From: a virus
Taxonomy: Duplodnaviria; Caudoviricetes
Reading direction: 5' to 3' (one strand)
Length of the DNA: 50,778 nt
IMG/VR virus record: IMGVR_UViG_3300036806_000033
Location: 1-50,778 of that record
This document shows positions 20,044-35,064 of this stretch, piece after piece. The first letter of the stretch is position 1. Each line of letters starts with the position of its first letter. The notes beneath the pieces are model-generated. The model worked only from the letters and a program-made list of their open reading frames with translations, had not been told where the DNA came from and ran no database searches. A program made the position numbers and the translations under genes.

Positions 20044-20715
20044 ATGCTCAGAGAACTTAGCAACATGATCAACGGCAGAGATATGCCGTCGACGGTTTGG
20101 AATGTGGATGCGTTGGTGAACTCTAAATACACTCCTGACCTTCCTCAACTGTTCACCAAGACGCATTGGTGGGTATTCATGTACGACGACTATCCAGTAG
20201 AGGAGGAAGCTCAACGTGTCGCATTCACGAACGAAGATTATCTCCTCTATCGTAAGAAGGAGAATGATGGACTGGTTGCTCTTGCGGCAACGGAGAAAGA
20301 TTCAACAGCTTTACAACGACCTTCATGGGCTGACCCTATACGTCGTTCAGCAGCGTGGACTTCTGCCCCGGCTACCCGGATCAAAGGCACGATCCATTTA
20401 CTCACTCCGGACCAAGTTATTTCAATTGACAAAGATGTCCAAAACGGAGTAGAGTTTGAACGTAGACGTATTACGCTCCTCATTCCTACCCGGCAGCTGG
20501 TCACGTTTCCTGACCATTGGAAAACGAACGGAGGAAAGAAAATTAAACCCTTTTTCCAGATGTTCGTTCATCAGCTGCAAGCCTGGATATGGGAGGGTAA
20601 TCGCGCACTATTTGATCAGCGGATCAATGGCATTGACTATGAACCCGCTGATATTATCACTCCTGCCTCCCTTTGGATCGGCTCATTTTATACAAAAGAA
20701 AAATGTCGAAGATAG
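20044..20715 (+). CDS. Gamma-glutamylcyclotransferase (GGCT/AIG2)-fold protein, degenerate
   Basis: WVFMYD...IKGTIHLL....VISID....GVEFERRRI...AWIW parallels FVYG...V.GEVY....L..LD..E...Y.R..V...AW.Y; GGAG RBS before 20044. Confidence 0.65.
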   Translation: MLRELSNMINGRDMPSTVWNVDALVNSKYTPDLPQLFTKTHWWVFMYDDYPVEEEAQRVAFTNEDYLLYRKKENDGLVALAATEKDSTALQRPSWADPIRRSAAWTSAPATRIKGTIHLLTPDQVISIDKDVQNGVEFERRRITLLIPTRQLVTFPDHWKTNGGKKIKPFFQMFVHQLQAWIWEGNRALFDQRINGIDYEPADIITPASLWIGSFYTKEKCRR

Positions 20716-22262
20716 TAGAACTCCACAAGCCGTGTCCCAGTCCTAACTGCTCTAGCAGTAATGCGTATTGCAAATGGGATGACGGACACGGCTACTGTTT
20801 CTCCTGCCATTCATTCTTCAAACCAAATGGTGATAGGAGCAACGATCCACAATACACTTACGAGTACCTTCCATGGCGTGGAGTCACCAAAGAGAGCTTC
20901 GAATTCTATGGTGTTAAAACTAAGATAGCACCTAATGGTGAACCTCTGGCGATTGGTTTTCCTTATCCAAATAGCAGTGTCAAACATCGCTACTTAGATA
21001 AGAAAGACTTTCGCTGGTCTGGTGATGTCCAGCCAGGGTTGTTTGGTATGAATAAGTTCACTCCAGGCGCCTCCAAATACATCACCATCACAGAAGGAGA
21101 GTTAGATGCTATCTCACTCAGACAAGCCTTACTTGACGGAAGAGGATTTGGTGGAACCCAAACGCCCCAGTCGTCTACGACGGATTTTCACGTCGTCTCC
21201 GTCTCTTCTGCTTCTAGCGCAGTTAGGGATTGTACTAGTGCTCGATCCTGGCTTGACCAATACGAGCGCATACTTCTCTGCTTTGATGAGGACGCCGTCG
21301 GGCTTGCTGCTGCAAGACGTGTCGCGACGCTCTTTGATAGTCGTAAAGTCTACCATGTGCGTCTTGGACACCGAAAAGATGCCAATGACTTTCTGCAGGT
21401 AGGTGATCCTGCTGCACTCAAAGAGTTATGGTGGAAAGCAAAGAAGTTCATGCTTGACACCATAACCTCCACCTTCGCAGAAATGCGAGCATGTCTGTTT
21501 ACTCCTGATCCACCATCTATTCCTTTTCCGTGGCAGTCATGGAATAACTCCCTGTATGGCTTACGCCAAGGAGAGAGTTATTTGATTACTGCGTTAGAAG
21601 GAGTTGGAAAGACTGAAGTGATGCACCACCTTGAGCATCACCTGCTTAAGGAGACAGATGCCAATGTCGGATCAATCTTCCTCGAAGAGCCTACTAAAGA
21701 TCATTACAAAGCTATCGCCCGGCTGGAATTACGGCAGCCTGTACATCTCCCGAACAGCGGTGTGGACCGCATTGCAATCGCCGAAGCTGTGGAAAAAGTT
21801 ACTCGGAGGGATGAGCGTCTGTTCGTTCATACTCATCATGGGTCAGACAATCCAGATACTATTCTCGACACCATTCGGTTTCTCGTTACTTCGTGTGACT
21901 GCAAGTATATTCTTTTGGACCACATTGGGATGGCTTGTGTTGGACTCGAAGGAGACTCCGAACGAATAGCGTTAGATTATATGTCCAATCGTTTACAAAT
22001 GATGGTTGTAGAACTAGGTTTTTGTTTAATTGTTGCTAGCCATGTTAACGATTTTGGTGAAACTAGAGGCAGTCGAATGATTGCTAAAGTTGCTAACAAT
22101 CGTATCAACCTGTTTCGTGATGTGAAAAATGGAGAAACTTTCACTCATGTTCACGTTGCAAAAAACCGGTTTGGAAGCAAGACCGGACCACTTCTAGACC
22201 TTTGCTTCAATCTTTCAACCTTCTCTTACACGGAATATCAAGAAAGCCTAAACAATGGTTAA
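20703..22262 (+). CDS. T7 gp4-like DNA primase-helicase
   Basis: Zn finger CP..NC...CFSC, TOPRIM ITEGELDA/CFDED/KDAND, Walker A EGVGKT, ILLDH, KNRFG. Confidence 0.95.
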   Translation: MSKIVELHKPCPSPNCSSSNAYCKWDDGHGYCFSCHSFFKPNGDRSNDPQYTYEYLPWRGVTKESFEFYGVKTKIAPNGEPLAIGFPYPNSSVKHRYLDKKDFRWSGDVQPGLFGMNKFTPGASKYITITEGELDAISLRQALLDGRGFGGTQTPQSSTTDFHVVSVSSASSAVRDCTSARSWLDQYERILLCFDEDAVGLAAARRVATLFDSRKVYHVRLGHRKDANDFLQVGDPAALKELWWKAKKFMLDTITSTFAEMRACLFTPDPPSIPFPWQSWNNSLYGLRQGESYLITALEGVGKTEVMHHLEHHLLKETDANVGSIFLEEPTKDHYKAIARLELRQPVHLPNSGVDRIAIAEAVEKVTRRDERLFVHTHHGSDNPDTILDTIRFLVTSCDCKYILLDHIGMACVGLEGDSERIALDYMSNRLQMMVVELGFCLIVASHVNDFGETRGSRMIAKVANNRINLFRDVKNGETFTHVHVAKNRFGSKTGPLLDLCFNLSTFSYTEYQESLNNG

Positions 22263-22280: not shown

Positions 22281-22718
22281 GTGCCAAAGATAACCGTCTA
22301 TAACAATGCTGATAAACCCCACAAGGGTCGCATTAAGAACTGGACACAATTAGCAACAGAAGGAAACATCATCTGCGGTTTCTACGTAGACCATCCAGAT
22401 TTCAAAAACAAATGGGGGCACACAAGTTCTATCAAGCATATAGCTGAACCAAACCAGTTCGGCTATCGTGAACTTGAAACTAAGAATTCCAGATATACTC
22501 TCGTAGGTAAAGAACTGACCTGGGAAGAGTATGTAAAGGTCCGGCAACAATTGGAAAGTGATCAACATGCTAAAGCGTATAAGTTACTTTCCCCCGATCC
22601 CCGGCCTACACCTGTTCAAACAGTTCTCCAACCAACCAATAACAAATCGAAAAAACTTAATGACAAACCTTATTACTCCAAAAAAACCCAACCTCGTCCT
22701 ATTAACGGGCGGAACTGA
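22281..22718 (+). CDS. Conserved phage hypothetical protein
   Basis: I.NW...G....HP.F.....HTS.I...ETKNSRYTL motif; GGAG RBS with GTG start. Confidence 0.7.
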   Translation: MPKITVYNNADKPHKGRIKNWTQLATEGNIICGFYVDHPDFKNKWGHTSSIKHIAEPNQFGYRELETKNSRYTLVGKELTWEEYVKVRQQLESDQHAKAYKLLSPDPRPTPVQTVLQPTNNKSKKLNDKPYYSKKTQPRPINGRN

Positions 22719-22998
22719 TGGCGATGGAGATTATCTTACTCCACTGCCAATAGGTACAAAGTTCCTTGCCAAAAAGGAATCGTCCATGTTAGGATACGAC
22801 TTACAGATGTGGACGGTAGTAAACAAGAGTAGACGTTCTCGTTTGCTTACTATTGGTGGACAACCACTCTGGGTACAACCATTTGATTTTTGTCAAAAGA
22901 ATAAACTGATTGAGGTATTAGATGATAATTGGACCGATAGACCGAGAGACTTGGAACCTGCTACGGCAGATCAACACAAGCTTGACGTGGATGCGTAA
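22660..22998 (+). CDS. Hypothetical protein
   Basis: MTNLITPKKPNLVLLTGG... within the ORF called 22558..22998. Confidence 0.6.
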   Translation: MTNLITPKKPNLVLLTGGTDGDGDYLTPLPIGTKFLAKKESSMLGYDLQMWTVVNKSRRSRLLTIGGQPLWVQPFDFCQKNKLIEVLDDNWTDRPRDLEPATADQHKLDVDA

Positions 22999-23079
22999 TC
23001 AACCTACTAGCAGATGGGATATATGTATTGAAAAAGAAGGTGCTATTTATGAAGAATTGAAACAACGGTATGTTGCTTA

Positions 23080-25062
23080 ATGCGATTAATAATTGACGTT
23101 GAGGCAAACTCTCTTGACAATCCTACTAAGATATGGTGCATTGTAACGAAAGACCTGGACACAGGAGTCGTCGATGTTTATCGCAATCTTACTGAGGATG
23201 CAAACGAGGCTGCTAGGTTCAAAGCCGTCTGGGATCAAAGACCTATTCTTATTGGCCATAATGTACTTGGTTGGGACTTTGATAATCTTGGGCGTTTGCT
23301 TAACCTTAATCTCGACGATATTGATGATCGCACGATTGATACACTGATACTTTCAAAATTGGTGGACTATCCGCGTGATGGCCACAGCATTGAAAGTTAC
23401 GGTGTTGAGTTCGGCTTTGAGAAGTTGGCATTCACCGACTTCTCTAAGCTGAGCGAAGAAATGGTGACCTATTGCACGCGGGACGTTGAAATATCCGAGA
23501 AGATATTTCTGAAGTATCGTAAGGTAATCAACGATCCCCGGTGGAAGCAATCCATACTCACTGAACATCAATTTCAGTGGCGTGCAGTTAACGCTATGAA
23601 GAGGAATGGATTTGCATTTAATACAGAAAAATGTAAAAAACTTCTTGACAAAGTCACAAAAGAGTTAGAAATTCTCGATGAACAAATCAATAAATTTCCA
23701 CCTATCTGGAAACTTCTAAGCATTGTTACACCTAAAGCTACGAAGTTTGGAACTATTGCTCAAAATTCTCTTCCCAAAATTTGGAGAAGCAGAACATGCG
23801 AATTAACAGTTGGTGTACCATTCGAACATGGTGAATGGATCAAATTCAACCCATCATCTGTTAAGCAAGTAGTAGACCTTCTATGGCAGGCTGGTTGGAA
23901 ACCAGAAGATCGCACTAAGACTGCTATTCTCACTGAGCGTGAGTTAGGGAAACTAGAACGCGACAAATCCAAAGACCAGTCTGCCATAGATCTTCTTAAA
24001 AAAAAGCAAGAGAAATTCAAGAAATATGGTTGGAAGATTAATGAAAATAATCTCCATACTTTACCGAATACTGCCCCTGAGGCAGCGAGAACTCTAGCAC
24101 GTAGAATTCTCGTCGAATCCAGACGCCGAACCCTAACGGAATGGCTCAACCTCGTTAAGGAAACAGGACGTATCCACAGTCAGTTCCAAGGGATCGGCGC
24201 CTGGACCCATCGCATGGCTCATCAGAAGCCAAACATGGCGAACATACCGAACCATTTAGATACTCAAAAAAGAGTTCGGTACTTGGGCGCTGAAATGCGG
24301 TCACTGTTTATATCCCCACGAAAAAGGCTGCTCGTCGGTGTAGATGCTGCGGCAATCCAGCTGCGCATCTTCGCCCATTACATCGACGATGCAGCCTTTA
24401 CTAAAGCCCTTGTTGAAGGTAAAAAGGAGAATAAAAGTGACCCACATTCTCTTAACAAAAACACCCTTGGCAGAGTTTGTAGATCAAGAGATGCAGCTAA
24501 GCGGTACATTTTTGCCTTGTTATTGGGAGCGGGATCCGGTAAGCTTGCCGAGATATTGGAATGTTCAGCTGAAGAAGCGGATGCCGCTCTTCAGAACATT
24601 ATGGAGCGATATACCGGGTTCACTTTTCTTAAACAGTCTACAATACCGGCCGATGCCAAGAGAGGGTGGTTCTATGGTCTTGACGGTCGAAAAGTTAGGA
24701 TACCTGGAGACACCATCAGCGAGAGACGGCACCTTGCTATGTCTGGGTATCTACAAAATGGTGAAGCGGTTATCATGAAGATGGCAACTCTTCTTTGGAT
24801 CAAGTATCTCGAAGAAGAGTTTGCTAAACCAGAGTGGAAAGACATAGACCACAACTGGCTTCTAGTGAATTTAGTTCATGATGAATGGCAAACTGAATGT
24901 GACTATTACATGGATGTTGCACTAAAAATTGCGGAACTGCAAGATAAAGCTTTACAAGACGTTGGTAATATGTTACACCTTAAGTGTCCTTTAGCAGGAA
25001 GCTATCGAGATGAGGATCGTAACGATTACACTATCGGCACGAACTGGAAATTAACACACTAG
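23080..25062 (+). CDS. polA: Family A DNA polymerase with 3'-5' exonuclease (T7 gp5-like)
   Basis: ExoI DVEAN, ExoII GHNVLGWD, ExoIII YCTRD; motif A VGVDAAAIQLR; motif B RDAAKRYIFALLLG; motif C VHDEWQ. Confidence 0.96.
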   Translation: MRLIIDVEANSLDNPTKIWCIVTKDLDTGVVDVYRNLTEDANEAARFKAVWDQRPILIGHNVLGWDFDNLGRLLNLNLDDIDDRTIDTLILSKLVDYPRDGHSIESYGVEFGFEKLAFTDFSKLSEEMVTYCTRDVEISEKIFLKYRKVINDPRWKQSILTEHQFQWRAVNAMKRNGFAFNTEKCKKLLDKVTKELEILDEQINKFPPIWKLLSIVTPKATKFGTIAQNSLPKIWRSRTCELTVGVPFEHGEWIKFNPSSVKQVVDLLWQAGWKPEDRTKTAILTERELGKLERDKSKDQSAIDLLKKKQEKFKKYGWKINENNLHTLPNTAPEAARTLARRILVESRRRTLTEWLNLVKETGRIHSQFQGIGAWTHRMAHQKPNMANIPNHLDTQKRVRYLGAEMRSLFISPRKRLLVGVDAAAIQLRIFAHYIDDAAFTKALVEGKKENKSDPHSLNKNTLGRVCRSRDAAKRYIFALLLGAGSGKLAEILECSAEEADAALQNIMERYTGFTFLKQSTIPADAKRGWFYGLDGRKVRIPGDTISERRHLAMSGYLQNGEAVIMKMATLLWIKYLEEEFAKPEWKDIDHNWLLVNLVHDEWQTECDYYMDVALKIAELQDKALQDVGNMLHLKCPLAGSYRDEDRNDYTIGTNWKLTH

Positions 25063-25084
25063 TGTTTCGAAATTAAATTAATTT

Positions 25085-25561
25085 ATGGCTACTAAACAAA
25101 TATATTTAAGCGGTAAATGTAGATATTGTCACATTCACGCTCCTGACAGATTTGGCCACTGGTCAACTATGCTTTACTTAGATGATAAATCTAAAACTAT
25201 CTGGCAACAGTTAAAAGAAGAAGGCATTCAAAACCGTATGAAAACGGATCAAGATGGGGCATTCGTAACACTACGGTGTCCTATCGAAAAGAAGATACGT
25301 GGAACAATGACCAAGATGAACCCAATCCTTGCGATTAAGGATCAAGTTCCTTATATCGGAATGATTGGTGATGGTTCAGATATCACGTGTATGGTTACGG
25401 TATATGACTACCGTAAACCGATCACCAACGAGGCAGGTAAAGCAATTAGATTGTCGGCTATTAAAATAAACAATTTAGTTGAACCTACCTTAAAAGCCTT
25501 ACCTCAAGCGGGTCAAGAGCAGGCTGCGGCGTTGATCGGTCAAGCTGACCCAATCTGGTGA
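25085..25561 (+). CDS. Probable ssDNA-binding protein (T7 gp2.5-like OB fold)
   Basis: Follows the polymerase; GK..Y..I..PD..G.W...L, IGDGS.....V.VY, IRLSAI.I.NLVE. Confidence 0.7.
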   Translation: MATKQIYLSGKCRYCHIHAPDRFGHWSTMLYLDDKSKTIWQQLKEEGIQNRMKTDQDGAFVTLRCPIEKKIRGTMTKMNPILAIKDQVPYIGMIGDGSDITCMVTVYDYRKPITNEAGKAIRLSAIKINNLVEPTLKALPQAGQEQAAALIGQADPIW

Positions 25562-25565
25562 GACT

Positions 25566-25826
25566 ATGGAGTATTATTATAAACTCTATAGGCCAGAATA
25601 TATCACTGTAACAATCAGTGATCCAAAGGAGAGTACCATGAGTAAAACCTACGAGACTGTAAAGTGGCGTGTCGCATATAACGAGTTTGACACGTTCGAA
25701 GAAGCTAAGACTGACGCTGACAAGCGAGCTCTGAAAGATTGGGAAGATGTCCCTGTCTGGAAGACCGTTGGTGTGGCAAGGTCTGCCTTCGCGCCTACCG
25801 CAGTTACCTGGACTGACCTCCAGTAA
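25566..25826 (+). CDS. Hypothetical protein (strong internal start at 25638)
   Basis: AAGGAG RBS before MSKTYETVKW. Confidence 0.7.
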   Translation: MEYYYKLYRPEYITVTISDPKESTMSKTYETVKWRVAYNEFDTFEEAKTDADKRALKDWEDVPVWKTVGVARSAFAPTAVTWTDLQ

Positions 25827-25863
25827 CACCGTGGCTTGTTGGTAAAAGTAACCCTCTGTAAAT

Positions 25864-25901
25864 CGAAAGGGCATTAGCGAAAGTTAGTGCCCTTTCGTTT
25901 T
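25864..25901 (+). terminator. Rho-independent terminator
   Basis: CGAAAGGGCATTAGC-GAAA-GTTAGTGCCCTTTCG followed by TTTT. Confidence 0.85.
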
Positions 25902-25916
25902 CCAAAGGAGGAAGGA

Positions 25917-26126
25917 ATGCACGATGATGTCAGATATTACAAACGAGTCTCAGTCTGTGAAAAGGTGGCCATTCAAAAGATGGTCAGCGCAGGAAGAGGA
26001 AGACGGAGACGTGTCAAGACAGTCTTCAAATGGCAGTGTAGACCATCTATTCGCATGATCAATGAGGGTGAGTACCCAATCATGAATGAAATTCAGAAGA
26101 TCTCATATAAATTGACGATCTTCTAA
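25917..26126 (+). CDS. Small basic protein (69 aa)
   Basis: AAGGAGG RBS before ATG 25917; Arg-rich. Confidence 0.6.
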   Translation: MHDDVRYYKRVSVCEKVAIQKMVSAGRGRRRRVKTVFKWQCRPSIRMINEGEYPIMNEIQKISYKLTIF

Positions 26127-26802
26127 CGAAGTAACCCCGGTAGTCCTGGCAGTATTTGTGTGCTTTTATGCACTGGCCCTGATGACTGGCGCCAGCCTAA
26201 GTCGTCCTAGGCAAAGGAGTGTAGTTGTAGCTGGATGCGCTCTATACGCACAAGGACGCCGGGGTTACACTAATTCAGTTTAGGAACTGCGAAGACTGGT
26301 GAGCATTCAGCCACCGACTAGTGGTTACCTAATCCCGAGAATACCTTCACGACTATGTTAGCCAGATCACGGTCACGGTATCAGCCAGTTGTGATGCCCG
26401 CTGTCCAGTGTTGTCCAATGTAGTGCTGAGTGCGAAGATTTCTCGGCCTACCGAACCCATGGGTACGTATTAAGACCTAGATCGGCACGCGTATGTATGG
26501 CTGAAGTAGGGTGCACTCATCTGAGTGTGATGTAGGGGTGCGATCCCGCCCGTCTTGTATCCCGTGCGGTACGATGGAGGCTAAAAAGTAACTGCATTCG
26601 GGAATAGGAAAGGCCTGCTCTCCGCAGGCTATGGCAAACAGTGAGGACGTGCAGCAGGTGTTCAAAAGACAAGCCAGATAGACGTGAAAGGCGGTGAATG
26701 CCTCTAGTCAATGTGATCCTGGTAACTAGTCTTAGTAATCTTCCTAGATTTTGACAGATACAGGGCCGATTGTGCAGTTAGCCCTGCCCGTTTGGAAACG
26801 GC

Positions 26803-26871
26803 TGTCTTAATCATGCAGGTTCGATCCCTGCCAGTGGTGTGTAACCGCTGTGGCGTAAAAAGTCGGGGACA
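26803..26871 (+). ncRNA. Circularly permuted tRNA-like module (YrlA/Y-RNA-like order: T arm, closed acceptor stem, D-like arm)
   Basis: GCAGG-TTCGATC-CCTGC, then CAGTGGT-gtgta-ACCGCTG, then TGGCGTAA; closed by TGTCTT/GGGACA. Confidence 0.6.
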
Positions 26872-27280
26872 AGTTTGTGGTGATCCAAACACTGGCTAGT
26901 TTGGCCCCCCTAGGCAACCGTAAGGAAGATAGCATCGGCAATAAAAGTTCAAACATGAACAGGAGATCATCCCAGTCGACTGAAAACTGTCCCATGGTGA
27001 ATGGATTACAGAAAGATTGTCGACGACTCACCTTAGTAATGGATGAATGAACAAGACAAGCACGGACAAGTAAGGGTTATCCCTCGGAAATCTCATCTTC
27101 ATGAGATACCTAAGATGCTAAAAGAGCAACAGTCCATACTCGACACGGTGCCCGAAAAGGCCTTTCACCAAGAGGATTTATCCCCACCACATTAAGTGGA
27201 GTGGACTAACGTCCGCTTTAATATTGTGGACATGGATGTGCAGCTTTCATCGGGGCAGGAGACTGCTCAAACCCTGGACA

Positions 27281-27374
27281 CGCGCTAAGGGCTGAAACGA
27301 TGTTAAGTGCTCTCCTCAGTCAGTAGACCTGTTAAAAGGTTAAGGTATTGTAGGTTCGAACCCTACCAGCGCGA
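27281..27374 (+). tRNA. Non-canonical tRNA-like element (possibly Asn-derived), no encoded CCA
   Basis: Acceptor CGCGCT/AGCGCG, T arm GTAGG-TTCGAAC-CCTAC, oversized D arm, GACCT-gttaaa-AGGTT anticodon-like arm. Confidence 0.55.
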
Positions 27375-28272
27375 ATGCTGATCGCTGACTTAGTATGTGA
27401 GATGGCTCGATCTAGCAACATCTAGGGAGCTTGGGTGAAACCAAGTGTCATTCAGTCTGAATAACTGAATGTTGTGGGAGTGATGAACCATCCGTGGCTT
27501 ATGACTGATCTGCTGTAGGATAATGCTCTAGTTAAATGCTTCGTAATTGGACGATGTCATGAACTGGAAAGCAAGCCCTGAAACAAACTTTGGTGTATAA
27601 TAACGTTCCTCAGGTGGAATAGGAAAACCAAAGCAAAAGTACCAATACCCCGTTAACTCCGCAGTGAAGTGAAGAACTAGCTGATGGGGATAAGAGGCTC
27701 CAGTAGCGTAAGTAGTCTGCCAAGAAAGCTGATCCCAATGTACATGATCAGTGACGGTGATGCGTTTGTACCACCCCATCTGCTACGAATAGAGGAGCAG
27801 TATAAAAGGTGTGGGAGCTAAATGTGAGATACCGTGTAGGCACGAAACGTGAAAGATAGGCCCTCCTTTACGGGCTGACTTAACCAAAGGAAGAAAATAA
27901 AGATGCCTGAGATGACATAGGAGCCATTCTAGCGGCTATTCACCTTCATCTTTAGCATAATAAAACTTCCTCGCGACTCCAAAGCACGCCAGATTAGCGT
28001 ACACTAGGAGCTAGAAGCGTGTCAGAAGTATTCAGGCTGGTAGTTTCCCAGTTCTGTCGAAAATGGCATTGGTAGCGAGAACGTTAAGTCTCGCTAAATT
28101 CCTCAAACGGAAGGAGATGAAAATGGGCATCACTCTGGACATGCGAGATGAGATAACTGTTAAACAACCTTGGAGCACGGGTCCGCCTTAAGATGCTGCG
28201 CGCGTAGAACATGCCGCAGCGGGGGAGGAGGCTTAACAGCCACTCCCCCCACATTCATAGGAGACTGTCGAC

Positions 28273-28581
28273 ATGAACCAACCAATCATCATAGTTCCTG
28301 GGGGACAAGGCGGGGGATACAACAATCACCCTCGTCCACCGAGACGAAGGAAGAACAGAGCTGACAAAAAAGCTGACTCTGAAAAAGAAAAGAAAAAAAA
28401 GGAAGCTGAAACTAAAAAACAGTTGCGTTTGCGTATATTTTATGCTATAAGCATTTTTGTTCTCCCACTATTCGGCATTTCTGCCGCATTCGTTCTCCTC
28501 GCCGTTGGATTAGGTGCAGTTAAACTCACAGAGATTTCTGCATATCTCCTACGACTCATAGTTAATCAATCAGCACATTGA
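28273..28581 (+). CDS. Membrane protein with a basic N-terminus
   Basis: AGGAG RBS; K/R-rich stretch followed by a long hydrophobic segment. Confidence 0.7.
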   Translation: MNQPIIIVPGGQGGGYNNHPRPPRRRKNRADKKADSEKEKKKKEAETKKQLRLRIFYAISIFVLPLFGISAAFVLLAVGLGAVKLTEISAYLLRLIVNQSAH

Positions 28582-29534
28582 AAACAATACATACTCTAAT
28601 ACCCGACATTTACAAGATCGTTAACACGAACTGGATGACGGATGAACTAGCCAACATACTGGCTAGGGACATCGCCAGTCGACTAGGGACCGGTAGGCAG
28701 GCGCGAAGGGCTCTGCGCCTTTCTGAACTCAGGCCTAGATGTCCCAAAGCCTTATGGCACAGTGTCCATACTCCTGAACTCGCAGCGCCGCTCCCGCCGT
28801 GGGTTCATATAAAGTTGATGTATGGACACATTCTTGAAGCCCTTGTCTTAACGCTAGCTAGAGCCGCTGGACATAAGGTTGAAGGAGAACAAGATGAATT
28901 GGTCTGCTGTGGGGTCGTGGGTCATCGGGACGCTGTTATTGATGGCTGCGTGGTCGATGTTAAGTCTTCTAGCGTTCTGGCTCTGGACAAGCTCAAAACT
29001 GGGTCCATTGAGCAGAACGACGGGTTTGGTTATCTTGATCAGCTTGACGCTTATATTGGCGGGAGTGCAACTGACTCACTTACAACCGTGAAAGATAAAG
29101 GCTATCTATTGGGCATTGGTAAAGAATTAGGACATTTAGCATTACATGAACACAAGTACAGAGCCAGTCATATTGAAGAAAGAATTCGGGATTATCAAAG
29201 GATTATTGCTCTCCCTGAACCGCCGAATTGCGAATGTGGAACTGAAGCTTTCACAAATGGAAACACGAAGCTTGATACCAGAGCAAGTTACGATGAAATG
29301 CGCTACGTCTGCTGGCCAAAACTTAGAACCTTTATCTACGCCAAAGGTCCAGTCTACCTGACCAACGTAGTTAAAGCACCTAAAGACGTCCCGGAGCTTG
29401 ACAAACACGGGAGGATATGTTATAATGGGCTGTATAATGTTACGTGGCCGATGCAAATGTCTGAACCCGTGGCAGGAGTGCAAGCACATTCATCCTCTTC
29501 AGCGTCATCCCAAACCGGAAGACTACTACAATGA
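28578..29534 (+). CDS. PD-(D/E)XK (Cas4/RecB-like) phage exonuclease
   Basis: LRLS....C...LW, GHILE, GHRDAVIDG.VVDVKS, Y..QL.AY. Confidence 0.88.
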   Translation: MKTIHTLIPDIYKIVNTNWMTDELANILARDIASRLGTGRQARRALRLSELRPRCPKALWHSVHTPELAAPLPPWVHIKLMYGHILEALVLTLARAAGHKVEGEQDELVCCGVVGHRDAVIDGCVVDVKSSSVLALDKLKTGSIEQNDGFGYLDQLDAYIGGSATDSLTTVKDKGYLLGIGKELGHLALHEHKYRASHIEERIRDYQRIIALPEPPNCECGTEAFTNGNTKLDTRASYDEMRYVCWPKLRTFIYAKGPVYLTNVVKAPKDVPELDKHGRICYNGLYNVTWPMQMSEPVAGVQAHSSSSASSQTGRLLQ

Positions 29535-29578
29535 GTTGCCCAATATCGACTATGTGCTAACAATAATACAAAACGCCG

Positions 29579-30130
29579 ATGGGGCAACTTCGCAATTCTT
29601 TCGAGAAAAAGACACTCGAACATTTAGAACAAAAATCTATCCATGTTGAATACGAGACAGAAAAGTTTGATTATGTCGTCTACGGCACTTACTGGTCAGA
29701 CTTTAAAATTCACCGAGTTCTTCAAGAACCATTATATGTTGAAACCAAAGGTTACCTAAGACCTGAAGATAAAATCAAACTTAGGGCAGTTAAGATCACT
29801 CATCCGGAATTAGACCTGCGTATACTGTTTTATGCCTACAAAAAGAAAGATACCCGTTGGGCAGACAAGTATCAGTTTAAATACGCGATCGGTACAATTC
29901 CAGATGAATGGTTAAAGGATGCAGAACATGTCACTCAAAATGGTGATTGCAGTCCGTCAAGACATTCAAATGAACAAAGGCAAGACAGCTGCACAAGTAG
30001 CCCACGCCGCAGTCGGTTGCCTCGCAGACGTAAAAACAAGACATCCAATCGTAGATCGTTGGTTATCCACAGGAGAAGCAAAGATCGTGGTCAAAGCAAC
30101 AGACTTGCAACAAATATACGATCTGGCTGA
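29579..30130 (+). CDS. T7 endonuclease I-like Holliday junction resolvase with a C-terminal run-on into pth2
   Basis: RNSFE...YE...Y.SDF...YVETKG...D..K...HPELDLR..F...WA.K..F.YA...IP.EWL. Confidence 0.88.
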   Translation: MGQLRNSFEKKTLEHLEQKSIHVEYETEKFDYVVYGTYWSDFKIHRVLQEPLYVETKGYLRPEDKIKLRAVKITHPELDLRILFYAYKKKDTRWADKYQFKYAIGTIPDEWLKDAEHVTQNGDCSPSRHSNEQRQDSCTSSPRRSRLPRRRKNKTSNRRSLVIHRRSKDRGQSNRLATNIRSG

Positions 30131-30278
30131 TCTTTGTCAGGCTCAAGGTTTAATGTACAACACTGTAACAGATAGTGGTAAAACTGTCTTTCATCAACCA
30201 ACAGTAACGTGTATCGCAATTGGTCCTGATACCGTTGAACAAGTTGACTTAGTGACCAAAGGACTCAAACTCCTATGA
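29928..30278 (+). CDS. pth2: Peptidyl-tRNA hydrolase, PTH2 family
   Basis: KMVIAVR.D..M.KGK.AAQ.AHA ... KIVVK ... DSGKT...PTVTCIAIGP...VD.VT.GLKLL; AAGGA RBS before 29928. Confidence 0.93.
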   Translation: MSLKMVIAVRQDIQMNKGKTAAQVAHAAVGCLADVKTRHPIVDRWLSTGEAKIVVKATDLQQIYDLADLCQAQGLMYNTVTDSGKTVFHQPTVTCIAIGPDTVEQVDLVTKGLKLL

Positions 30279-30353
30279 ACGAAATAGCAAAGATTGGTTA
30301 TTTCACTTTAGGTCTAATCTTAGGTGGAATGATCATGTGGATGGTAGACTACT

Positions 30354-30575
30354 TTGTCTACTTTGAATACTTCAAAGCAATCCTTCGTATATGTGGAGCA
30401 CCGTGTGCGAACACTTAAGCATCCACATAGCCGGTTAGAACGGATGGAGGCGAGTAAGCAACATGAACGCCCAAAGGCCGGTACCAAAGGTCCACGTATC
30501 CGAGAAGTCTTGGAAGACGCGGAAACCAAACAACAACTCATACGAGTCAAGAATTTTGGAGAAGTCGATCTCTGA
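30354..30575 (+). CDS. Small hypothetical protein (start uncertain)
   Basis: ORF track; overlapping candidates make the start ambiguous. Confidence 0.45.
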   Translation: MSTLNTSKQSFVYVEHRVRTLKHPHSRLERMEASKQHERPKAGTKGPRIREVLEDAETKQQLIRVKNFGEVDL

Positions 30576-30768
30576 TGATCACATTCTCTCTTTCGTAGAA
30601 ATCTACTTTCGTTCTAGAACGATGGGACTTATACGAAAAGATGATGAAGTAAAAAAGAGATGGTTAGACGTGAATGATAATGGGGACATTGTGGTAAAAT
30701 TCCTCCTTCGCGGTCCTCCAATGAAAATAAATAAGAAGGGGGTGAAGATTACCATCATCAATGCATAA
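30463..30768 (+). CDS. Hypothetical protein
   Basis: GGAGG RBS before ATG 30463. Confidence 0.55.
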   Translation: MNAQRPVPKVHVSEKSWKTRKPNNNSYESRILEKSISDDHILSFVEIYFRSRTMGLIRKDDEVKKRWLDVNDNGDIVVKFLLRGPPMKINKKGVKITIINA

Positions 30769-30991
30769 CTATCCTAAAGAAACTAAATACGAAGACAGTG
30801 CTGCGCAGGTCAGACGTCGAGAAGCTCGCAATCGAGCTAGAGCTAAAGCAGCTAAAGCCGGTAAAGTTCACAAAGGTGATAACCGAGAGGTAGATCATCT
30901 TGGATTCCATAGAACTGGATCACTTGACAAAGTGAAGACAGCTGTGGTATCTAAACATGCTAACAGAATTAGACAACCTAAAAGAAAATAA
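30761..30991 (+). CDS. Small HNH-like protein typical of podoviruses
   Basis: R.ARNRAR......G.VHKGD.REVDH...HANR. Confidence 0.75.
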   Translation: MHNYPKETKYEDSAAQVRRREARNRARAKAAKAGKVHKGDNREVDHLGFHRTGSLDKVKTAVVSKHANRIRQPKRK

Positions 30992-31107
30992 GCGTCCAGC
31001 GGTCGTGCGCACCGGATGCAAAATGCTCCTAGCACGACTAGGGGCTACCAATTCCTCGAAAGAGGAACAACCGCCCAGCAATGGGCCAACAAAGGAGTAA
31101 GCAAAAA

Positions 31108-31254
31108 TGAAGCTTACCACGCTCGATGCCAACACCCAGACTAAGCCGGTGAAGGCAGACCCTAATACTGAGATGAACAAGCCTCAGGTTATGGTTGAGT
31201 ACCAGGATGAGACCGATCTTAACGGTCAACCCCTGCCTACCCCTGCTCAGTAAT
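31108..31254 (+). CDS. Small hypothetical protein (48 aa)
   Basis: AAGGAG RBS; MKLTTLDANTQTKPVKADPN... Confidence 0.65.
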
Positions 31255-31327
31255 GAGCAATAGAGAATAGATGAGAAGTGACCTTGACAGACTTTTCATC
31301 TATTCTCTTTCTTTCAGGAGAAAGACA

Positions 31328-31792
31328 ATGAGTTACGACTGTTACGAATGTGTCATCGAAGTCGATACCGAAGATTATATCGACCGACCACAACGAAAGG
31401 AGAAAACTACAATGAATGATTTCCGATCTTATCTTAACCGACGAGTTGATCGCGTCTTTGAAGATGGAAGGATTACTCTAGCCAAGAAGTTTTTCTTGCT
31501 AGAGGATAATCCTCCGCAAACGGCTGAAGCCCTTGTTGAAGTCATCAAATCTGGTAAGTATCAACTGCCAACCAAAGATGAAAAGACTGGGTTGACGTCT
31601 TACGGTATGGGTCCCTACGGGATTATCTTCCGTGATCCTGCTAATGTTGCTGATCCTACTGGATTTGAAGCAGCGTTGAAGGAGTTGAAGAAGGAAAAGA
31701 TGAAAGCTCTTGATGTTATCAATATCCTGGATGAGGTTACCTCTAAACAGGCTCTTGATAACTTCATGACTTACGTTGAGTCCTTGAACTAA
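31328..31792 (+). CDS. Hypothetical protein (second in-frame start at 31412)
   Basis: AGGAG RBS before both MSYDCY and MNDFRS; last gene of the plus arm. Confidence 0.75.
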   Translation: MSYDCYECVIEVDTEDYIDRPQRKEKTTMNDFRSYLNRRVDRVFEDGRITLAKKFFLLEDNPPQTAEALVEVIKSGKYQLPTKDEKTGLTSYGMGPYGIIFRDPANVADPTGFEAALKELKKEKMKALDVINILDEVTSKQALDNFMTYVESLN

Positions 31793-31839
31793 CCTACCCC
31801 GCTCCAGTGGGCGCTCCAACGCTCTAGCGGGAATAGAAG

Positions 31840-31876
31840 AAGCCTCGGTGGCCTTTCATGGCTGCCGAGGCTTTTT
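31840..31876. terminator. Terminator at the convergence of the two arms (probably bidirectional)
   Basis: AAGCCTCGGTGGCC-tttcat-GGCTGCCGAGGCTT followed by TTT; A-rich 5' flank. Confidence 0.88.
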
Positions 31877-31902
31877 CATGTCTAAATTCTAAATAAGGTC
31901 TG

Positions 31903-32040
31903 TTATGCTCTTCCACGGCCTACGGCCTGAGCACCTTTATGTTTACTATTCCATATTTTAGCTGCTTTAGTTTTAGCTGCTTTAGTTGACATTCCTTTAG
32001 CAATAAAGGAATCTCTTATTTTTTCATATCCTGCTGGCAT
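31903..32040 (-). CDS. Small basic protein (45 aa)
   Basis: MPAGYEKIRDSFIAKGMSTKAAKTKAAKIWNSKHKG; TAATG coupling. Confidence 0.7.
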   Translation of the reverse strand: MPAGYEKIRDSFIAKGMSTKAAKTKAAKIWNSKHKGAQAVGRGRA

Positions 32041-32540
32041 TAGAATTTCTTTCTTTTATCATTATCATTGGCTGGCTTAGGAGGTTTACTTAATCCACCA
32101 GCTATATTAGGCACAGTTGTTCCTAAGTTAGGTGGAATATTATCATTCTGTGCATATACAACTGGTTTACCTAAATCTTTAGAACGTATATAATCTTCCT
32201 CTCCAGGTCTTATAACTCTACCTTTTTCTCCTGGTGAAGGTATTTTAAAAGTATCTAAAATCTGCTGATCATTACGTTTATCCTCAATATACTTTTTATA
32301 ATCTTTCATAGTATCTGAAGGTACCATATATCCTTGAGGAGGTAAATCAGTTAACACTTCACTTTCCCAATCTCCTTTCGGAGTAGGTGCATTAACAGGT
32401 CCGACTGGAGGTTTAGGTTTATCAGATTTAGTGTATCCATATAAAGCATTAAACCCCTCAGCAATATATTCTGAAGGAGAATTCCCCATGAAATTCTCTA
32501 ATGAATCATAACGTTCACCGCTAGAAGTAGTTATAGACAT
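32040..32540 (-). CDS. Pro-rich hypothetical late protein
   Basis: 166 aa, coupled to both neighbours; PANDN near the C-terminus. Confidence 0.75.
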   Translation of the reverse strand: MSITTSSGERYDSLENFMGNSPSEYIAEGFNALYGYTKSDKPKPPVGPVNAPTPKGDWESEVLTDLPPQGYMVPSDTMKDYKKYIEDKRNDQQILDTFKIPSPGEKGRVIRPGEEDYIRSKDLGKPVVYAQNDNIPPNLGTTVPNIAGGLSKPPKPANDNDKRKKF

Positions 32541-34741
32541 TACTTACCCTCTTCATATGCTTTCTTAATACGAGCTTTAGCTGCAGCAATATCTTCACCA
32601 GGCTGAAGCGTGACAGGTTTCGCACTTGTAGACTTCTCAACGGCACCTAACATCTCAGCTGGGATACCAGAGAAACCTTCAAAATTGAAGTTAAGTTCTC
32701 TAAGCTTTTGTAAGGTATAAACCGTTGAAGAATGTCCATCTTTCTTAGCTATATAATTAAGAGAATCTAATCCAGTATTAACCTGATCAATAACTCTTTT
32801 TACAGCTGGAGGAACGTCTTTAAAAGTAGTTGTGCCTGCCTTAGGTTTAACATGAAAATGACCTTCCTTGTCATCCCAACCAAAATCTAAATCTTTAAAA
32901 TATTTATTCTCAGTAAATTGATCTAGCTGTTTAAGTTGACCAGTAAATAATATATCTCCATGTTCATGTTCAACATATGTCTTATACATATTCCATGTTT
33001 CAGGACCAAGACGTTTCATCTCATCAGCATTAGCATCTTTAGTCATACGCTTAAAGATTGCCATACGTCCTGGCTTATATTGTAATACTCCATTACGATC
33101 ACGTTCATAACTGTCGTTAGGAAAGTTCTTTAAGAAACCTTGGTTAGCTGCGTCAAAGAATGATTTAGCAACATTACGCTTTTGATTATCATCTCTTAAA
33201 CCACCATCTTTAGCAGGCTTACTAATTAAATCTACTTTTTCAACAAGACTTCTAGCTGCCTGAGGATTCTTACCATAATCTATTAAGACTTTAGCTGCAT
33301 CATTAGCAGGAGTTCCTTTAGTGACCATTCCTACTTCACGATTCTTATCCCAGGCTTGCAATGCTTCAGATACATCTGGATGATTTGCTTCATATAACTT
33401 CTGTCCCCATTCCGGACTTATCTTAGCAGCTGCTCCAAGATTAATCATGTGAGGACCTAAATCTTTATCATCTAACATGGATTTAGTGGCTGCTTGAACC
33501 ATAGCATTATGTTGAGCAGGTATATAAGAAGCTAATCCAAAATCTTTATTTTCTACTGCTTGAATTACACGATCAACAGCCCCTAATGCAGTTTGAATCT
33601 GTGCTCGTCCTTTAGCTGCTCCATCTTCTCCACCGGCTCCAAGTAATGTAGCTGTAGTCTTACCACTATTTTTTTCAAGAGGTCTAAACAACTCTTTTTC
33701 CATAGCTGCTTCTTGCTGATCTCTGAGCAAATGAAGAGTCTGTTTAAGTTTCTCAACCTCTAAAGGATTAGTAGCAGCAGCACCACCTGCTTGAATCTCT
33801 TGAACACGTGCATTTATCTGCTCCAGATTCTTGTATCCTGCTTTGTCATACATGGTTTGAAAACCACCATTGACAACATTAGAAGTATAATCTGCCCAAG
33901 ATTTACCAGCTGCATCTTTAGTAAATTTATTACTAGCATCAAGCTGTTCAACACTAAGCTTTAAACCATCCTTAGCCGACTCATAACGTCTGACTGCTCT
34001 TTCAAGAACAGGAATAGCTGTTCTATCTCCAGCATGTAAACGATCTACTAAAGTATCAATACCTGGAACATCTGAATGAGAATGCGCATAACTAATAGAA
34101 TTCTTTAAGTCTTCGTCTTTACCAGCATTAGCTGATAAGAAATATTGTTGAAGAGCTTGCATTTTAGCGTTAGCAGTATTACCAAAACCTGCTCTAGCAA
34201 ATTCATGGTCAATATAATCAACATGATCTGGAAATCTAGCACGTAATGCTTTAGCTTGTCTGTCTACTTCGGCTGTTAATAGAACACTATTAATTTTAGT
34301 ATCCAACTTTGCTTGAGATAATTGTCCAGCAATTTGTGGAACAGTTCTAAGATCAGTCGGAAGAGTCTTCTTATCTACACCAGGTTGTAGAAGTTCTATA
34401 CCAGCATTAGGAGCATTAATAGAAGTTTGAAGTTCTTTATCTCCTATAGTCTGATTATAAAAGTTCTCATATGCAGCTGTAGCTTGATCTCTAGCTTTTT
34501 CAGCCAATTTTATTTCATTCTCACCTTCAAGACCAGGAGAATTCTCAATCTGTTGTCTAGTCTGAAACTCTTGAACCTTACCAATGTCCTTAACCATCTC
34601 ACCAGCATGAGCTAATCCTTGACCTACTCCAGTCAAAGCTGTGCCTATAGCCTTATTACCTTCCACAGGTGATATAGGTCGAGAATAATTCCGAAAGTCT
34701 TCTTCCTGAACTTGTTGTGGATTTGGGTTAAATACGTTCAA
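32540..34741 (-). CDS. Internal virion (ejection) protein
   Basis: 733-aa A/Q/K-rich helical protein in the internal-protein position. Confidence 0.7.
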   Translation of the reverse strand: MNVFNPNPQQVQEEDFRNYSRPISPVEGNKAIGTALTGVGQGLAHAGEMVKDIGKVQEFQTRQQIENSPGLEGENEIKLAEKARDQATAAYENFYNQTIGDKELQTSINAPNAGIELLQPGVDKKTLPTDLRTVPQIAGQLSQAKLDTKINSVLLTAEVDRQAKALRARFPDHVDYIDHEFARAGFGNTANAKMQALQQYFLSANAGKDEDLKNSISYAHSHSDVPGIDTLVDRLHAGDRTAIPVLERAVRRYESAKDGLKLSVEQLDASNKFTKDAAGKSWADYTSNVVNGGFQTMYDKAGYKNLEQINARVQEIQAGGAAATNPLEVEKLKQTLHLLRDQQEAAMEKELFRPLEKNSGKTTATLLGAGGEDGAAKGRAQIQTALGAVDRVIQAVENKDFGLASYIPAQHNAMVQAATKSMLDDKDLGPHMINLGAAAKISPEWGQKLYEANHPDVSEALQAWDKNREVGMVTKGTPANDAAKVLIDYGKNPQAARSLVEKVDLISKPAKDGGLRDDNQKRNVAKSFFDAANQGFLKNFPNDSYERDRNGVLQYKPGRMAIFKRMTKDANADEMKRLGPETWNMYKTYVEHEHGDILFTGQLKQLDQFTENKYFKDLDFGWDDKEGHFHVKPKAGTTTFKDVPPAVKRVIDQVNTGLDSLNYIAKKDGHSSTVYTLQKLRELNFNFEGFSGIPAEMLGAVEKSTSAKPVTLQPGEDIAAAKARIKKAYEEGK

Positions 34742-35061
34742 TTTAATTCACCTTTTACATACTGTAAAGCTCGACTTATTCCTTCTTCATTGTCACCTAA
34801 CATTCCAAGACCTATGTTACAATTCTTACATAACAATCCACGAACTTTATCTGTTTCATGATCATGATCTATATGTAAATGTTTTTGATCCAAACTTAAA
34901 AAGAAAACACCACATATCGCACACTGACTATTCTGTTTATCTAAAAGATTATAAAATTCTTCTTTAGTTAAACTATATGTATTAAAAACAGTTTTCCATT
35001 TACGCTGTTCTTTATTTTTCAAATACCAATTTGCCAAATCTTTTTTATTTTTATAAGCCAT
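34738..35061 (-). CDS. Endonuclease VII-family His-Me homing endonuclease
   Basis: Q...CAIC...HIDHDH.T.KVRGLLC..CN..LG; AT-rich insert between virion genes. Confidence 0.92.
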   Translation of the reverse strand: MAYKNKKDLANWYLKNKEQRKWKTVFNTYSLTKEEFYNLLDKQNSQCAICGVFFLSLDQKHLHIDHDHETDKVRGLLCKNCNIGLGMLGDNEEGISRALQYVKGELN

Positions 35062-35064
35062 AGT

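What the first reader, a model, noticed from the sequence alone, without database searches (positions are those of the whole stretch)
27375..28105. ncRNA domain D: about 700-nt GOLLD/ROOL-sized RNA directly after the tRNA-like unit, with switchable pairing
Helices include CTTGG/CCAAG (27430-45), CATTCAGT/ACTGAATG (27449-71), CTTTGGT/ACCAAAG (27588-633), GCTCC/GGAGC with GTAGC/GCTAC (27697-798), CTGATC/GATCAG, GGAAG/CTTCC, TAAAGATG/CATCTTTA (27898-954) and AGCGAGA/TCTCGCT, joined by A-rich linkers. GATGGGG (27683-89) can pair either with CCCCGTT (about 27648) or with CCCCATC (27774-80); the second option makes a pseudoknot. This could be a switch or an intermolecular contact.
Basis: partly seen in the sequence, partly recalled or inferred. 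Interest (0 to 1): 0.72.

Follow-up and report, generated by a model that had tools for sequence, protein, structure and literature searches.

The report
Large structured phage RNA domain
This 730-base stretch of an uncultured soil phage encodes no protein; it is one folded domain of a roughly 2-kb structured RNA that matches no catalogued RNA family and whose function is unknown.

Summary
Real feature, partly misread. On its own the fold is no better than chance (MFE z -1.4). The evidence is comparative.

Against the only reachable close relative (L001, 62% identity), a fold predicted from the window alone keeps 24 pairs through changes on both sides. The null is 7.2+-2.4, and 0-3 with slid partners. 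There is no codon periodicity, and 16 of 18 indels are not multiples of 3.

The proposed switch is not supported beyond chance: GATGGGG has a better-supported third partner.

Rfam shows no GOLLD, ROOL or tRNA match, even at E<=10.

All 25 related loci examined carry an ORF-poor, covarying stretch in the same genomic slot. It holds tRNA T-arm look-alikes in many of them, a CAGAYNA-loop hairpin in 13 of 25, and ends in a Pro-Pro-stop mini-ORF in all.

Best reading: a new class of large phage RNA. Function and expression are untested. The scan reached the same reading earlier on other DNA (e1-3748626).

The parts
26129..28105 (+). Whole ORF-poor structured RNA locus. Domains A and B, a T-arm hairpin, domain C, a second T-arm hairpin, then domain D.
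   Evidence: No ORF of 90 aa or more between 25875 and 28272. Homologous to L001 10831-13401 at 68-93% in patches. Covariation z for double changes: domain A +8.4, domain B +4.3, domain D +6.9, domain C +0.5; coding controls -0.5 to +2.8. GC 0.480 against 0.418 for the genome.
27350..27366 (+). T-arm look-alike hairpin (5-bp stem, loop TTCGAAC closed by G-C) at the 5' edge of domain D.
   Evidence: Window GTAGG/CCTAC, L001 GGAGG/CCTCC: one compensated pair. ARAGORN and the Rfam tRNA model do not call a tRNA here. The acceptor-like pairing is 6/7 in the window and has no counterpart in L001.
27375..28105 (+). Domain D, the stretch of the finding.
   Evidence: RNAalifold z -12.0 on +, -4.9 on -; coding controls -1.9 to -6.7. 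24 double-compensated pairs against a null of 7.2+-2.4; 39 broken pairs against 70+-5. 0 of 500 shuffles reach the observed values, and slid partners give 0-3.
27425..28049 (+). Closed core of domain D: long-range helix 27425-29 / 28045-49.
   Evidence: 5 bp, 1 double and 2 single changes, none broken in L001.
27430..27445 (+). Hairpin CTTGG-GTGAAA-CCAAG.
   Evidence: L001 reads GTTGG-GTGAAA-CCAAC, so the first pair is compensated. Read by eye from the alignment.
27527..27568 (+). Long hairpin in two segments: 27527-33/27562-68 and 27536-44/27551-60.
   Evidence: 15 bp, 3 double and 2 single changes, none broken.
27588..27633 (+). Hairpin CTTTGGT/ACCAAAG with an inner stem 27605-09/27616-20.
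   Evidence: Outer stem 7/7 kept with 1 single change. Inner stem has 2 double changes.
27657..27689 (+). Hairpin CUCCGCAGU / GCUGAUGGGG.
   Evidence: 9 bp, 4 double changes, none broken in L001.
27728..27752 (+). Hairpin GCTGATC/GATCAGT.
   Evidence: 7 bp, 2 double and 2 single changes.
27758..28024 (+). Sub-domain closed by the 12-bp long-range helix 27758-70 / 28012-24.
   Evidence: 12 bp, 2 single changes, none broken. There are no double changes, so the support is weaker.
27771..27814 (+). Hairpin CCACCCC/GGUGUGG plus CUGC/GCAG. L001 carries a 41-nt insertion at its tip.
   Evidence: 6 bp with 4 double changes, and 4 bp with 2 double changes.
27888..27971 (+). Arm AGGAAG/CUUCCU enclosing 27911-15/27946-50 and 27922-25/27934-37.
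   Evidence: 1, 2 and 2 double changes respectively, none broken.
27986..28000 (+). Hairpin ACGC-CAGATTA-GCGT, shared across phage clusters.
   Evidence: Hairpins with a CAGAYNA loop: 13 in the syntenic gaps (34.0 kb) of 13 of 25 loci, against 8 in 648 kb elsewhere on both strands. Stems differ between clusters.
28073..28096 (+). 3'-terminal hairpin UAGCGAG/CUCGCUA.
   Evidence: 7 bp, 1 double change.
28123..28191 (+). 22-codon mini-ORF ending Pro-Pro-stop. It marks the 3' end of the RNA locus and lies outside the finding.
   Evidence: AAGGAG sits 6 nt before the ATG. The peptide ends WSTGPP* in the window and in L001. A CCNCCN-stop lies at the same place in 9 of 9 loci and within 4 kb upstream of the exonuclease gene in 17 of 17 further loci.

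Best explanation
Domain D is the 3' domain of a roughly 2-kb non-coding, heavily base-paired RNA encoded on the + strand of a complete 50.8-kb podovirus-like phage. The locus lies between the family-A DNA polymerase module and a Cas4-domain exonuclease gene.

Shown:
- The stretch does not code for protein.
- Its base pairs are maintained by compensatory change.
- Its core is closed by long-range helices into a multi-junction fold of about 625 nt.
- It begins after a T-arm look-alike and ends just before a Pro-Pro-stop mini-ORF.
- Related phages carry a structured RNA of 0.85-2.1 kb in the same slot. All carry the mini-ORF. Many carry T-arm hairpins, and 13 of 25 carry a CAGAYNA-loop hairpin.

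Inferred working model:
- The region is transcribed by the host polymerase together with the DNA-metabolism genes and folds domain by domain.
- The T-arm hairpins act as handles for host tRNA-processing or tRNA-modifying enzymes, which trim or stabilise the domains.
- Domain D persists as a stable RNA particle that acts in trans as a scaffold or decoy, in the way proposed for GOLLD and ROOL.

It belongs to neither of those families. It represents a new class of large phage RNA.
For: Non-coding: 6-24 stops in every frame. Mismatches by codon phase 68/73/65 (p=0.82), and 16 of 18 indels are not multiples of 3. In DNAP, the exonuclease gene and p79, p is 4e-30, 2.5e-9 and 0.03, and 0 of 8 indels break frame.

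Structure under selection: a fold predicted from the window alone, tested in L001, has 24 double-compensated pairs (null 7.2+-2.4) and 39 broken pairs (null 70+-5). The reverse test, L001's fold tested in the window, gives 29 against 8.2. Four coding controls give z for double changes of -0.5 to +2.8, against +6.9 here. Slid-partner controls give 0-3 double changes, and 0 of 500 shuffles reach the observed measures.

Strand: alifold z is -12.0 on + and -4.9 on -.

RNA-like composition: A makes up 0.41 of unpaired and 0.16 of paired positions.

Indels fall at hairpins: one hairpin is deleted in L001, and a 41-nt insertion sits at a helix tip.

Family level:
- Synteny DNAP - p158 - gap - exonuclease - endonuclease I holds in 8 of 9 IMG/VR loci; the ninth is too short.
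- Covariation excess is seen in three other clusters, and is better on the + strand.
- T-arm hairpins lie in the gap in 9 of 10 sources and in 9 of 17 further loci.
- The CAGAYNA hairpin is about 31-fold enriched in the gaps.
- The Pro-Pro-stop mini-ORF is present in 26 of 26 loci.

Not a known family: Rfam gives 0 matches in the window. At E<=10 there are only three weak, unrelated matches, none inside domain D. The gaps of 21 relatives' loci give none either.

Context: passages of 10.1101/2024.12.08.627333 and PMC5737381 say that GOLLD and ROOL are phage or prophage RNAs, often near tRNA islands, with tRNAs sometimes in the GOLLD linker.
Against: - Only two sequences (window and L001) carry a recognisable domain D, so every covariation count rests on one pairwise comparison and one MAFFT alignment.
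- The single-sequence fold is not more stable than shuffles (z -1.4).
- One coding control also showed fewer broken pairs than its null (z -4.7), so the 'broken' measure alone is not specific.
- No sequence-level homology of domain D to the other clusters was found. Only short motifs are shared, and the CAGAYNA hairpin sits at different distances from the mini-ORF in different clusters (73-905 nt).
- Expression, transcript ends, processing at the T-arm, stability and any trans action are all untested.
- The mini-ORF at the 3' end of every gap fits a cis-acting leader at least as well as a free RNA.
- The full tRNA-like fold is not conserved in L001, which weakens the processing-handle idea.
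Confidence: 0.6

Rival explanations
1. Cis-acting giant leader. The structured stretch is the 5' untranslated part of the mRNA for the downstream genes: the mini-ORF, the 102-aa protein and the Cas4-domain exonuclease. Its compact fold shields a long untranslated stretch from Rho and nucleases. Its 3' hairpins, together with the Pro-Pro-stop mini-ORF, set how much the downstream genes are translated.
For: Same strand as the flanking genes, with no terminator-like site between the RNA and the mini-ORF. The Pro-Pro-stop mini-ORF directly follows the gap in all 26 loci checked. A UCCU/AGGA hairpin (28100-03/28112-15) overlaps the mini-ORF's Shine-Dalgarno sequence in the window and in L001. GC-rich hairpins lie between the mini-ORF stop and the next ribosome-binding site in three clusters.
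Against: 0.7-2 kb with multi-junction domains is far more than any leader of this kind needs. Gap size and domain content vary between clusters (0.85-2.1 kb) while the mini-ORF stays. T-arm hairpins have no obvious role in a leader. Neither reading was tested experimentally.
Confidence: 0.22
2. Decayed tRNA island. The locus is the remnant of a phage tRNA gene cluster of which only the T-arms survive, and the sequence between them, including domain D, is drifting spacer.
For: T-arm hairpins with the exact G-TTCRANN-C loop and 5-bp stems. Some relatives carry true tRNA genes elsewhere in their loci.
Against: Drifting spacer would not keep 24 pairs through double changes or give an alifold z of -12. 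Domain D is about 10 tRNA lengths with no further T-arm inside it. The T-arm stems themselves covary, so they are under selection.
Confidence: 0.05
3. DNA-level element, such as a replication origin or recombination site whose hairpins form in single-stranded DNA, or protein-coding sequence read in an unusual way.
For: Location among replication genes. Helices are by nature also present on the other strand, which still shows some excess (z -4.9; 21 double changes).
Against: The + strand fits clearly better, as expected if G-U pairs count. GC is above the genome mean, not AT-rich. No repeats or iterons were found in the region. No frame is open and there is no periodicity.
Confidence: 0.05

Closest known systems
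[quoted passage not shown]
   Same: Phage-encoded, very large, many-helix RNA of unknown function that is associated with tRNA elements. GOLLD has a conserved 3' region and a variable 5' region, with tRNAs sometimes in the linker (passages of 10.1101/2024.12.08.627333). Here a 3' domain D follows T-arm look-alikes and more variable 5' domains.
   Different: No match to the Rfam model even at E<=10. The tRNA-like parts are not real tRNAs. The host phages are soil podovirus-like genomes of about 50 kb. Multimer formation is untested.
ROOL RNA (Rumen-Originating, Ornate, Large)
   Same: Similar size: ROOL averages 581 nt (PMC5737381 passages), and the domain D core is about 625 nt. Same phage or prophage context near tRNAs, and a multi-junction fold.
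   Different: No match to the Rfam model. [quoted passage not shown] No pseudoknot here is supported beyond chance.
tRNA T-arm and tRNA-like processing modules (for example mascRNA at the 3' end of MALAT1, or tRNA punctuation; recalled, not from a call)
   Same: A hairpin with a 5-bp stem and a 7-nt loop G-TTCRANN-C, exactly the T-arm consensus, lies at domain boundaries.
   Different: No complete cloverleaf. ARAGORN and the Rfam tRNA model find nothing. Acceptor pairing is not conserved in L001. Cleavage by RNase P or RNase Z is untested.
Ribosome-arrest or leader peptides ending in proline-stop (such as TnaC; recalled, not from a call)
   Same: The mini-ORF at the 3' edge always ends Pro-Pro-stop, with only the wobble base of the first Pro codon varying.
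   Different: The peptides are otherwise unrelated between clusters. Stalling is untested. This element lies outside the finding.

Membership tests
GOLLD RNA | Match to the Rfam covariance model (sequence plus structure) | tested here: not met
   cmscan of the whole window at gathering thresholds gave 0 matches. cmscan of 25800-28400 at E<=10 with permissive filters gave only BjrC68, Mico1 and sR12 below threshold, none in domain D.
GOLLD RNA | Phage or prophage location next to tRNA genes, with a conserved 3' half and a variable 5' half | tested here: inconclusive
   The phage location is met (complete virus record with terminal repeats). Only T-arm look-alikes are present, not tRNAs. 3' domain D is alignable with L001 throughout, whereas domain C is poorly conserved.
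GOLLD RNA | Homo-oligomeric nanocage | not testable with these tools
   Needs cryo-EM or mass photometry. The palindromic loop sequences seen in the window are not kept in L001 (by eye).
ROOL RNA | Match to the Rfam covariance model | tested here: not met
   as for GOLLD. There are also no matches in 21 loci of relatives.
ROOL RNA | [quoted passage not shown] | tested here: inconclusive
   The size is comparable (core 27425-28049). Junction-rich nested folds were predicted. No pseudoknot is supported beyond chance: 4 non-nested candidates where shuffles give 2.2+-1.6 such helices in all.
tRNA | Cloverleaf recognised by ARAGORN or by Rfam RF00005 | tested here: not met
   ARAGORN found 0 genes in the window. 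There is no tRNA match at E<=10 in 25800-28400. True tRNAs in L003, L004 and L007 were found by both tools, so the tools work on these phages.
Large ornate phage RNAs (the kind, not a sequence family) | Several hundred nt, non-coding, many helices maintained by covariation, phage-encoded, near tRNA-type elements | tested here: met

The most novel reading that the evidence does not exclude
Domain D is the core of a new, widespread class of phage RNA that works as a free particle like GOLLD and ROOL. In this reading it is cut out of the middle-gene transcript at the T-arm look-alikes by the host's tRNA-processing enzymes. It then assembles, alone or as a multimer, into a scaffold or cage that captures a host translation or tRNA factor during infection. 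The Pro-Pro-stop mini-ORF senses the state of that machinery and couples it to expression of the downstream exonuclease genes.
Probability: 0.15. Interest if true: 0.9.

Novelty: new variant of a known kind. Interest (0 to 1): 0.7.

Why it matters
Very few large (over 500 nt) structured non-coding RNAs are known in bacteria and phages. Passages of PMC5737381 say that only rRNA, group II introns and GOLLD exceed ROOL. The known ones turned out to form unprecedented RNA-only cages (10.1101/2024.12.08.627333).

A further class would widen that small set. This one is conserved in a fixed genomic slot across at least ten sequence clusters of soil phages. It is built around T-arm look-alikes and always ends in a Pro-Pro-stop mini-ORF.

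That would give a tractable comparative system, with many diverged versions of one locus, for asking what such RNAs do for a phage.

Three literature searches turned up no description of it. Subscription journals and supplements were not searchable, so it may be in print unseen.

Tried and rejected
Expression: the look-up of sequencing runs (kind rna) listed no RNA holder, so read laying could not be used. This says nothing about expression.

More close relatives:
- blastn of 25800-28300 against the phage collection found no match.
- Three exact-pattern scans of viral contigs returned only the L001 contig as a true relative. The other hits showed at most the 20-25-nt pattern itself.
- The metagenome scan with DNAP gave 24 loci, none closer than L001.
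- The genome-contig scan returned one locus, L091. It is 100% identical to the window over 12,954 nt and adds nothing.

Cross-cluster homology of domain D:
- nhmmer with the window/L001 profile found nothing below E=3.
- blastn between gaps linked only close relatives.
- An 8-sequence MAFFT alignment was noise apart from the T-arm and the Pro-Pro-stop.
- Side-by-side folds around the shared CCTGAAACAAAC motif were not alignable by eye.
- Covariance models were not built. The useful sub-domains exceed the size the tool can calibrate, and a 2-sequence model seemed unlikely to add to the motif result.

Other negatives:
- No consistent complementary partner for the CAGAYNA loop in 13 loci.
- No repeated promoter-like motif in the genome.
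- Sigma-70-like sites are not above shuffles in 25000-29000.
- The PF00940 (T7-type RNA polymerase) search of the genome was blank, but its control rang nowhere, so it is uninformative.
- Structural aligners (mafft-qinsi and mafft-xinsi) are not installed.
- Kissing-loop palindromes (AUGUACAU in the 27728-52 loop, AACGUU in the 28073-96 loop) are not kept in L001 (by eye), so there is no support for intermolecular contacts.

Supplements of the cited papers were closed. They may hold motif lists in which this RNA could appear.

Full report
**Setting.** The window is a complete virus record of 50,778 bp with 127-bp direct terminal repeats. Around the finding, the + strand carries:
- a primase-helicase (20673-22262);
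- a family-A DNA polymerase (23080-25062);
- small ORFs, p158 (25085-25561) among them;
- a stretch from 25875 to 28272 with no ORF of 90 aa or more;
- a 102-aa ORF;
- a Cas4-domain exonuclease (28578-29534);
- endonuclease I;
- a PTH2 peptidyl-tRNA hydrolase.

The finding (27375-28105) is the 3' third of that ORF-poor stretch.

**Observation.**
- Taken alone this means little. The MFE of the 731-nt stretch is only 1.4 sd better than 20 dinucleotide shuffles, and the reverse strand does as well (z -1.6).
- Rfam gives no match in the window at gathering thresholds. Three weak unrelated matches appear at E<=10 in 25800-28400, none inside domain D, and none to GOLLD, ROOL, tRNA, tmRNA or introns.
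- ARAGORN finds no tRNA.

**Non-coding.** Every frame of domain D holds 6-24 stops.
- Against the only reachable close relative, mismatches fall evenly on the three codon phases (68/73/65, p=0.82), and 16 of 18 indels are not multiples of three. That relative is L001, an IMG/VR contig of 51,265 bp with 77% DNAP identity.
- In DNAP, the exonuclease gene and p79, the phases are strongly skewed and 0 of 8 indels break frame.

**Conserved structure.**
- The window's 25935-28264 matches L001 10831-13401 in patches of 68-93% identity. Domain D aligns end to end at 62% column identity.
- A fold predicted from the window alone and then tested in L001 keeps 24 pairs through changes on both sides. The null from permuted substitutions is 7.2+-2.4. 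It breaks 39 pairs (null 70+-5). The converse test gives 29 against 8.2.
- Four coding controls give z for double changes between -0.5 and +2.8, against +6.9 for domain D. One control did show fewer broken pairs than expected (z -4.7), so I rely on the double changes.
- The independent counting tool agrees: 24 double changes against 0-3 when partners are slid by 1-3 columns, and 0 of 500 shuffles reach any of the five measures.
- RNAalifold energy is 12.0 sd below column shuffles on the + strand and 4.9 sd below on the - strand. Coding controls reach -1.9 to -6.7.
- Unpaired positions are A-rich (0.41 against 0.16 in paired positions).
- Indels sit at hairpins. One perfect 8-bp hairpin of the window is simply absent from L001, and L001 has a 41-nt insertion at the tip of the 27780-83/27797-800 stem.

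I conclude that domain D is a structured RNA read from the + strand. The limit is that all of this rests on one pair of sequences.

**Anatomy.** A 5-bp long-range helix (27425-29/28045-49) closes a core of about 625 nt. Inside it are:
- a 5' group of hairpins: 27430-45, 27527-68 and 27588-633;
- two central hairpins: 27657-89 and 27728-52;
- a sub-domain closed by a 12-bp helix (27758-70/28012-24);
- within that sub-domain, the arms 27771-814, 27833-51, 27860-75 and 27888-971, and the hairpin 27986-28000.

A last hairpin (28073-96) and a short stem overlapping a Shine-Dalgarno sequence follow.

- Five of the nine helices survive in L001, four of them with compensated pairs.
- Three do not survive: GCTCC/GGAGC, GTAGC/GCTAC and TAAAGATG/CATCTTTA.
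- One is absent from L001.
- GATGGGG pairs best with CUCCGCAGU just upstream (9 bp, 4 double changes). CCCCATC lies in a helix with GGUGUGG (6 bp, 4 double changes).
- The second alternative keeps a weak 5-bp core (2 G-U pairs) with two double changes. A scan for all such helices finds 8: 4 nested and 4 not. Column-shuffled alignments give 2.2+-1.6 in all, so this candidate is within chance.

The switch is therefore unsupported, though not excluded.

**Beyond the finding.**
- Domains A (26129-26270, z +8.4) and B (z +4.3) covary too. Domain C and the full tRNA-like fold do not.
- Relatives with 49-58% DNAP or exonuclease identity keep the gene order. Each has an ORF-poor stretch of 0.85-2.1 kb in the same place.
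- These stretches fall into at least ten sequence clusters with no alignable similarity to the window. Three clusters tested pairwise show the same excess of compensated pairs, better on the + strand.
- Rfam finds nothing in the gaps of 21 relatives' loci.

Three small features recur across clusters:
- T-arm look-alikes with covarying stems lie almost only in the gaps and only on the + strand. They occur in 9 of 10 sources, and in 9 of 17 further loci (two of those loci are near-duplicates).
- A hairpin with loop CAGAYNA is domain D's 27986-28000. There are 13 in 34 kb of gaps, against 8 in 648 kb elsewhere, and the stems differ between clusters.
- A mini-ORF ends Pro-Pro-stop. It is present in 9 of 9 and 17 of 17 loci, and the only variable base is the wobble of the first Pro codon.

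Short shared strings were also seen, CGATGGAGGCTAAAA in domain B and CCTGAAACAAAC in domain D.

**Interpretation.**
- The best-supported statement is that domain D is one domain of a new class of large phage RNA.
- It resembles GOLLD and ROOL in kind: phage-encoded, large, ornate and tied to tRNA-type elements (passages read). It fails their only testable membership criterion, the covariance models.
- The working model of a free, stable particle processed at the T-arms is inference.
- The main rival is a giant cis-acting leader for the mini-ORF and the exonuclease operon. The invariable mini-ORF favours that rival.
- No expression data could be obtained.

**Earlier work in this scan.** A follow-up on another genome that shares 96 of 135 short words with this stretch (e1-3748626) reached the same reading: a giant structured RNA locus with T-arm look-alikes, no known family and a Pro-Pro-stop leader. 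I arrived at these points from my own calls before seeing it. It is agreement, not independent evidence.

Noticed in passing
window 28123-28191 (also L001 near 13320; L002, L009, L035, L003, L004, L006, L007, L068-L086): A mini-ORF of 13 to about 25 codons always ends Pro-Pro-stop (CCN CCN TAA, usually followed by G). It sits at the 3' end of the RNA locus in every related phage checked. Window and L001 share ...D(L/M)RD...WSTGPP*. It looks like a conserved translational sensor or arrest peptide.
   Followed up: partly
window 28196-28250: Two GC-rich hairpins (CTGCG...CGCAG and GGGGGAGGAGGC...GCCACTCCCCC) lie between the mini-ORF stop and the ribosome-binding site of the 102-aa gene. They are conserved in L001. 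Analogous hairpins occur in other clusters.
   Followed up: no
window 26815-26831 and 27350-27366: Two hairpins carry the exact tRNA T-arm consensus, and the stems covary with L001. No tRNA is called by ARAGORN or Rfam, and the acceptor-like pairing of the second unit (6/7) has no counterpart in L001.
   Followed up: partly
window 26129-26270 and 26271-26760: Domains A and B of the same locus also show compensated pairs (z +8.4 and +4.3). The string CGATGGAGGCTAAAA (26572-26586) recurs in 5 other sequence clusters.
   Followed up: partly
window 26761-27280: Domain C and the first T-arm region show no covariation excess against L001 (z +0.5). A 45-nt stretch of L001's domain C is shared with L084.
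   Followed up: no
window 29919-30278: PTH2-type peptidyl-tRNA hydrolase (Pfam E 1.5e-34). Its ORF overlaps the end of the endonuclease I ORF (29579-30130). No tblastn match in L001-L009, so it is not linked to the RNA locus.
   Followed up: partly
window 25842-25902: Strong terminator-like hairpin followed by a T-run, after the 86-aa ORF and just before the p79 ORF. It showed up as a sub-threshold BjrC68 match.
   Followed up: no
window 5540-6533: Imperfect repeats with a 60-nt period (8-10 copies) inside the 599-aa minus-strand ORF 5371-7170. Probably a repetitive structural (tail or fibre) protein.
   Followed up: no
L091 1-12954: A record of the genome-contig collection is 100% identical to window 22578-35531. 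The same phage genome has therefore been deposited inside a bacterial genome bin. This gives no reliable host.
   Followed up: partly
window 27739-27746 and 28080-28085: Palindromes AUGUACAU and AACGUU lie in hairpin loops, which would suit kissing-loop dimerisation. Neither is kept in L001 (by eye).
   Followed up: partly
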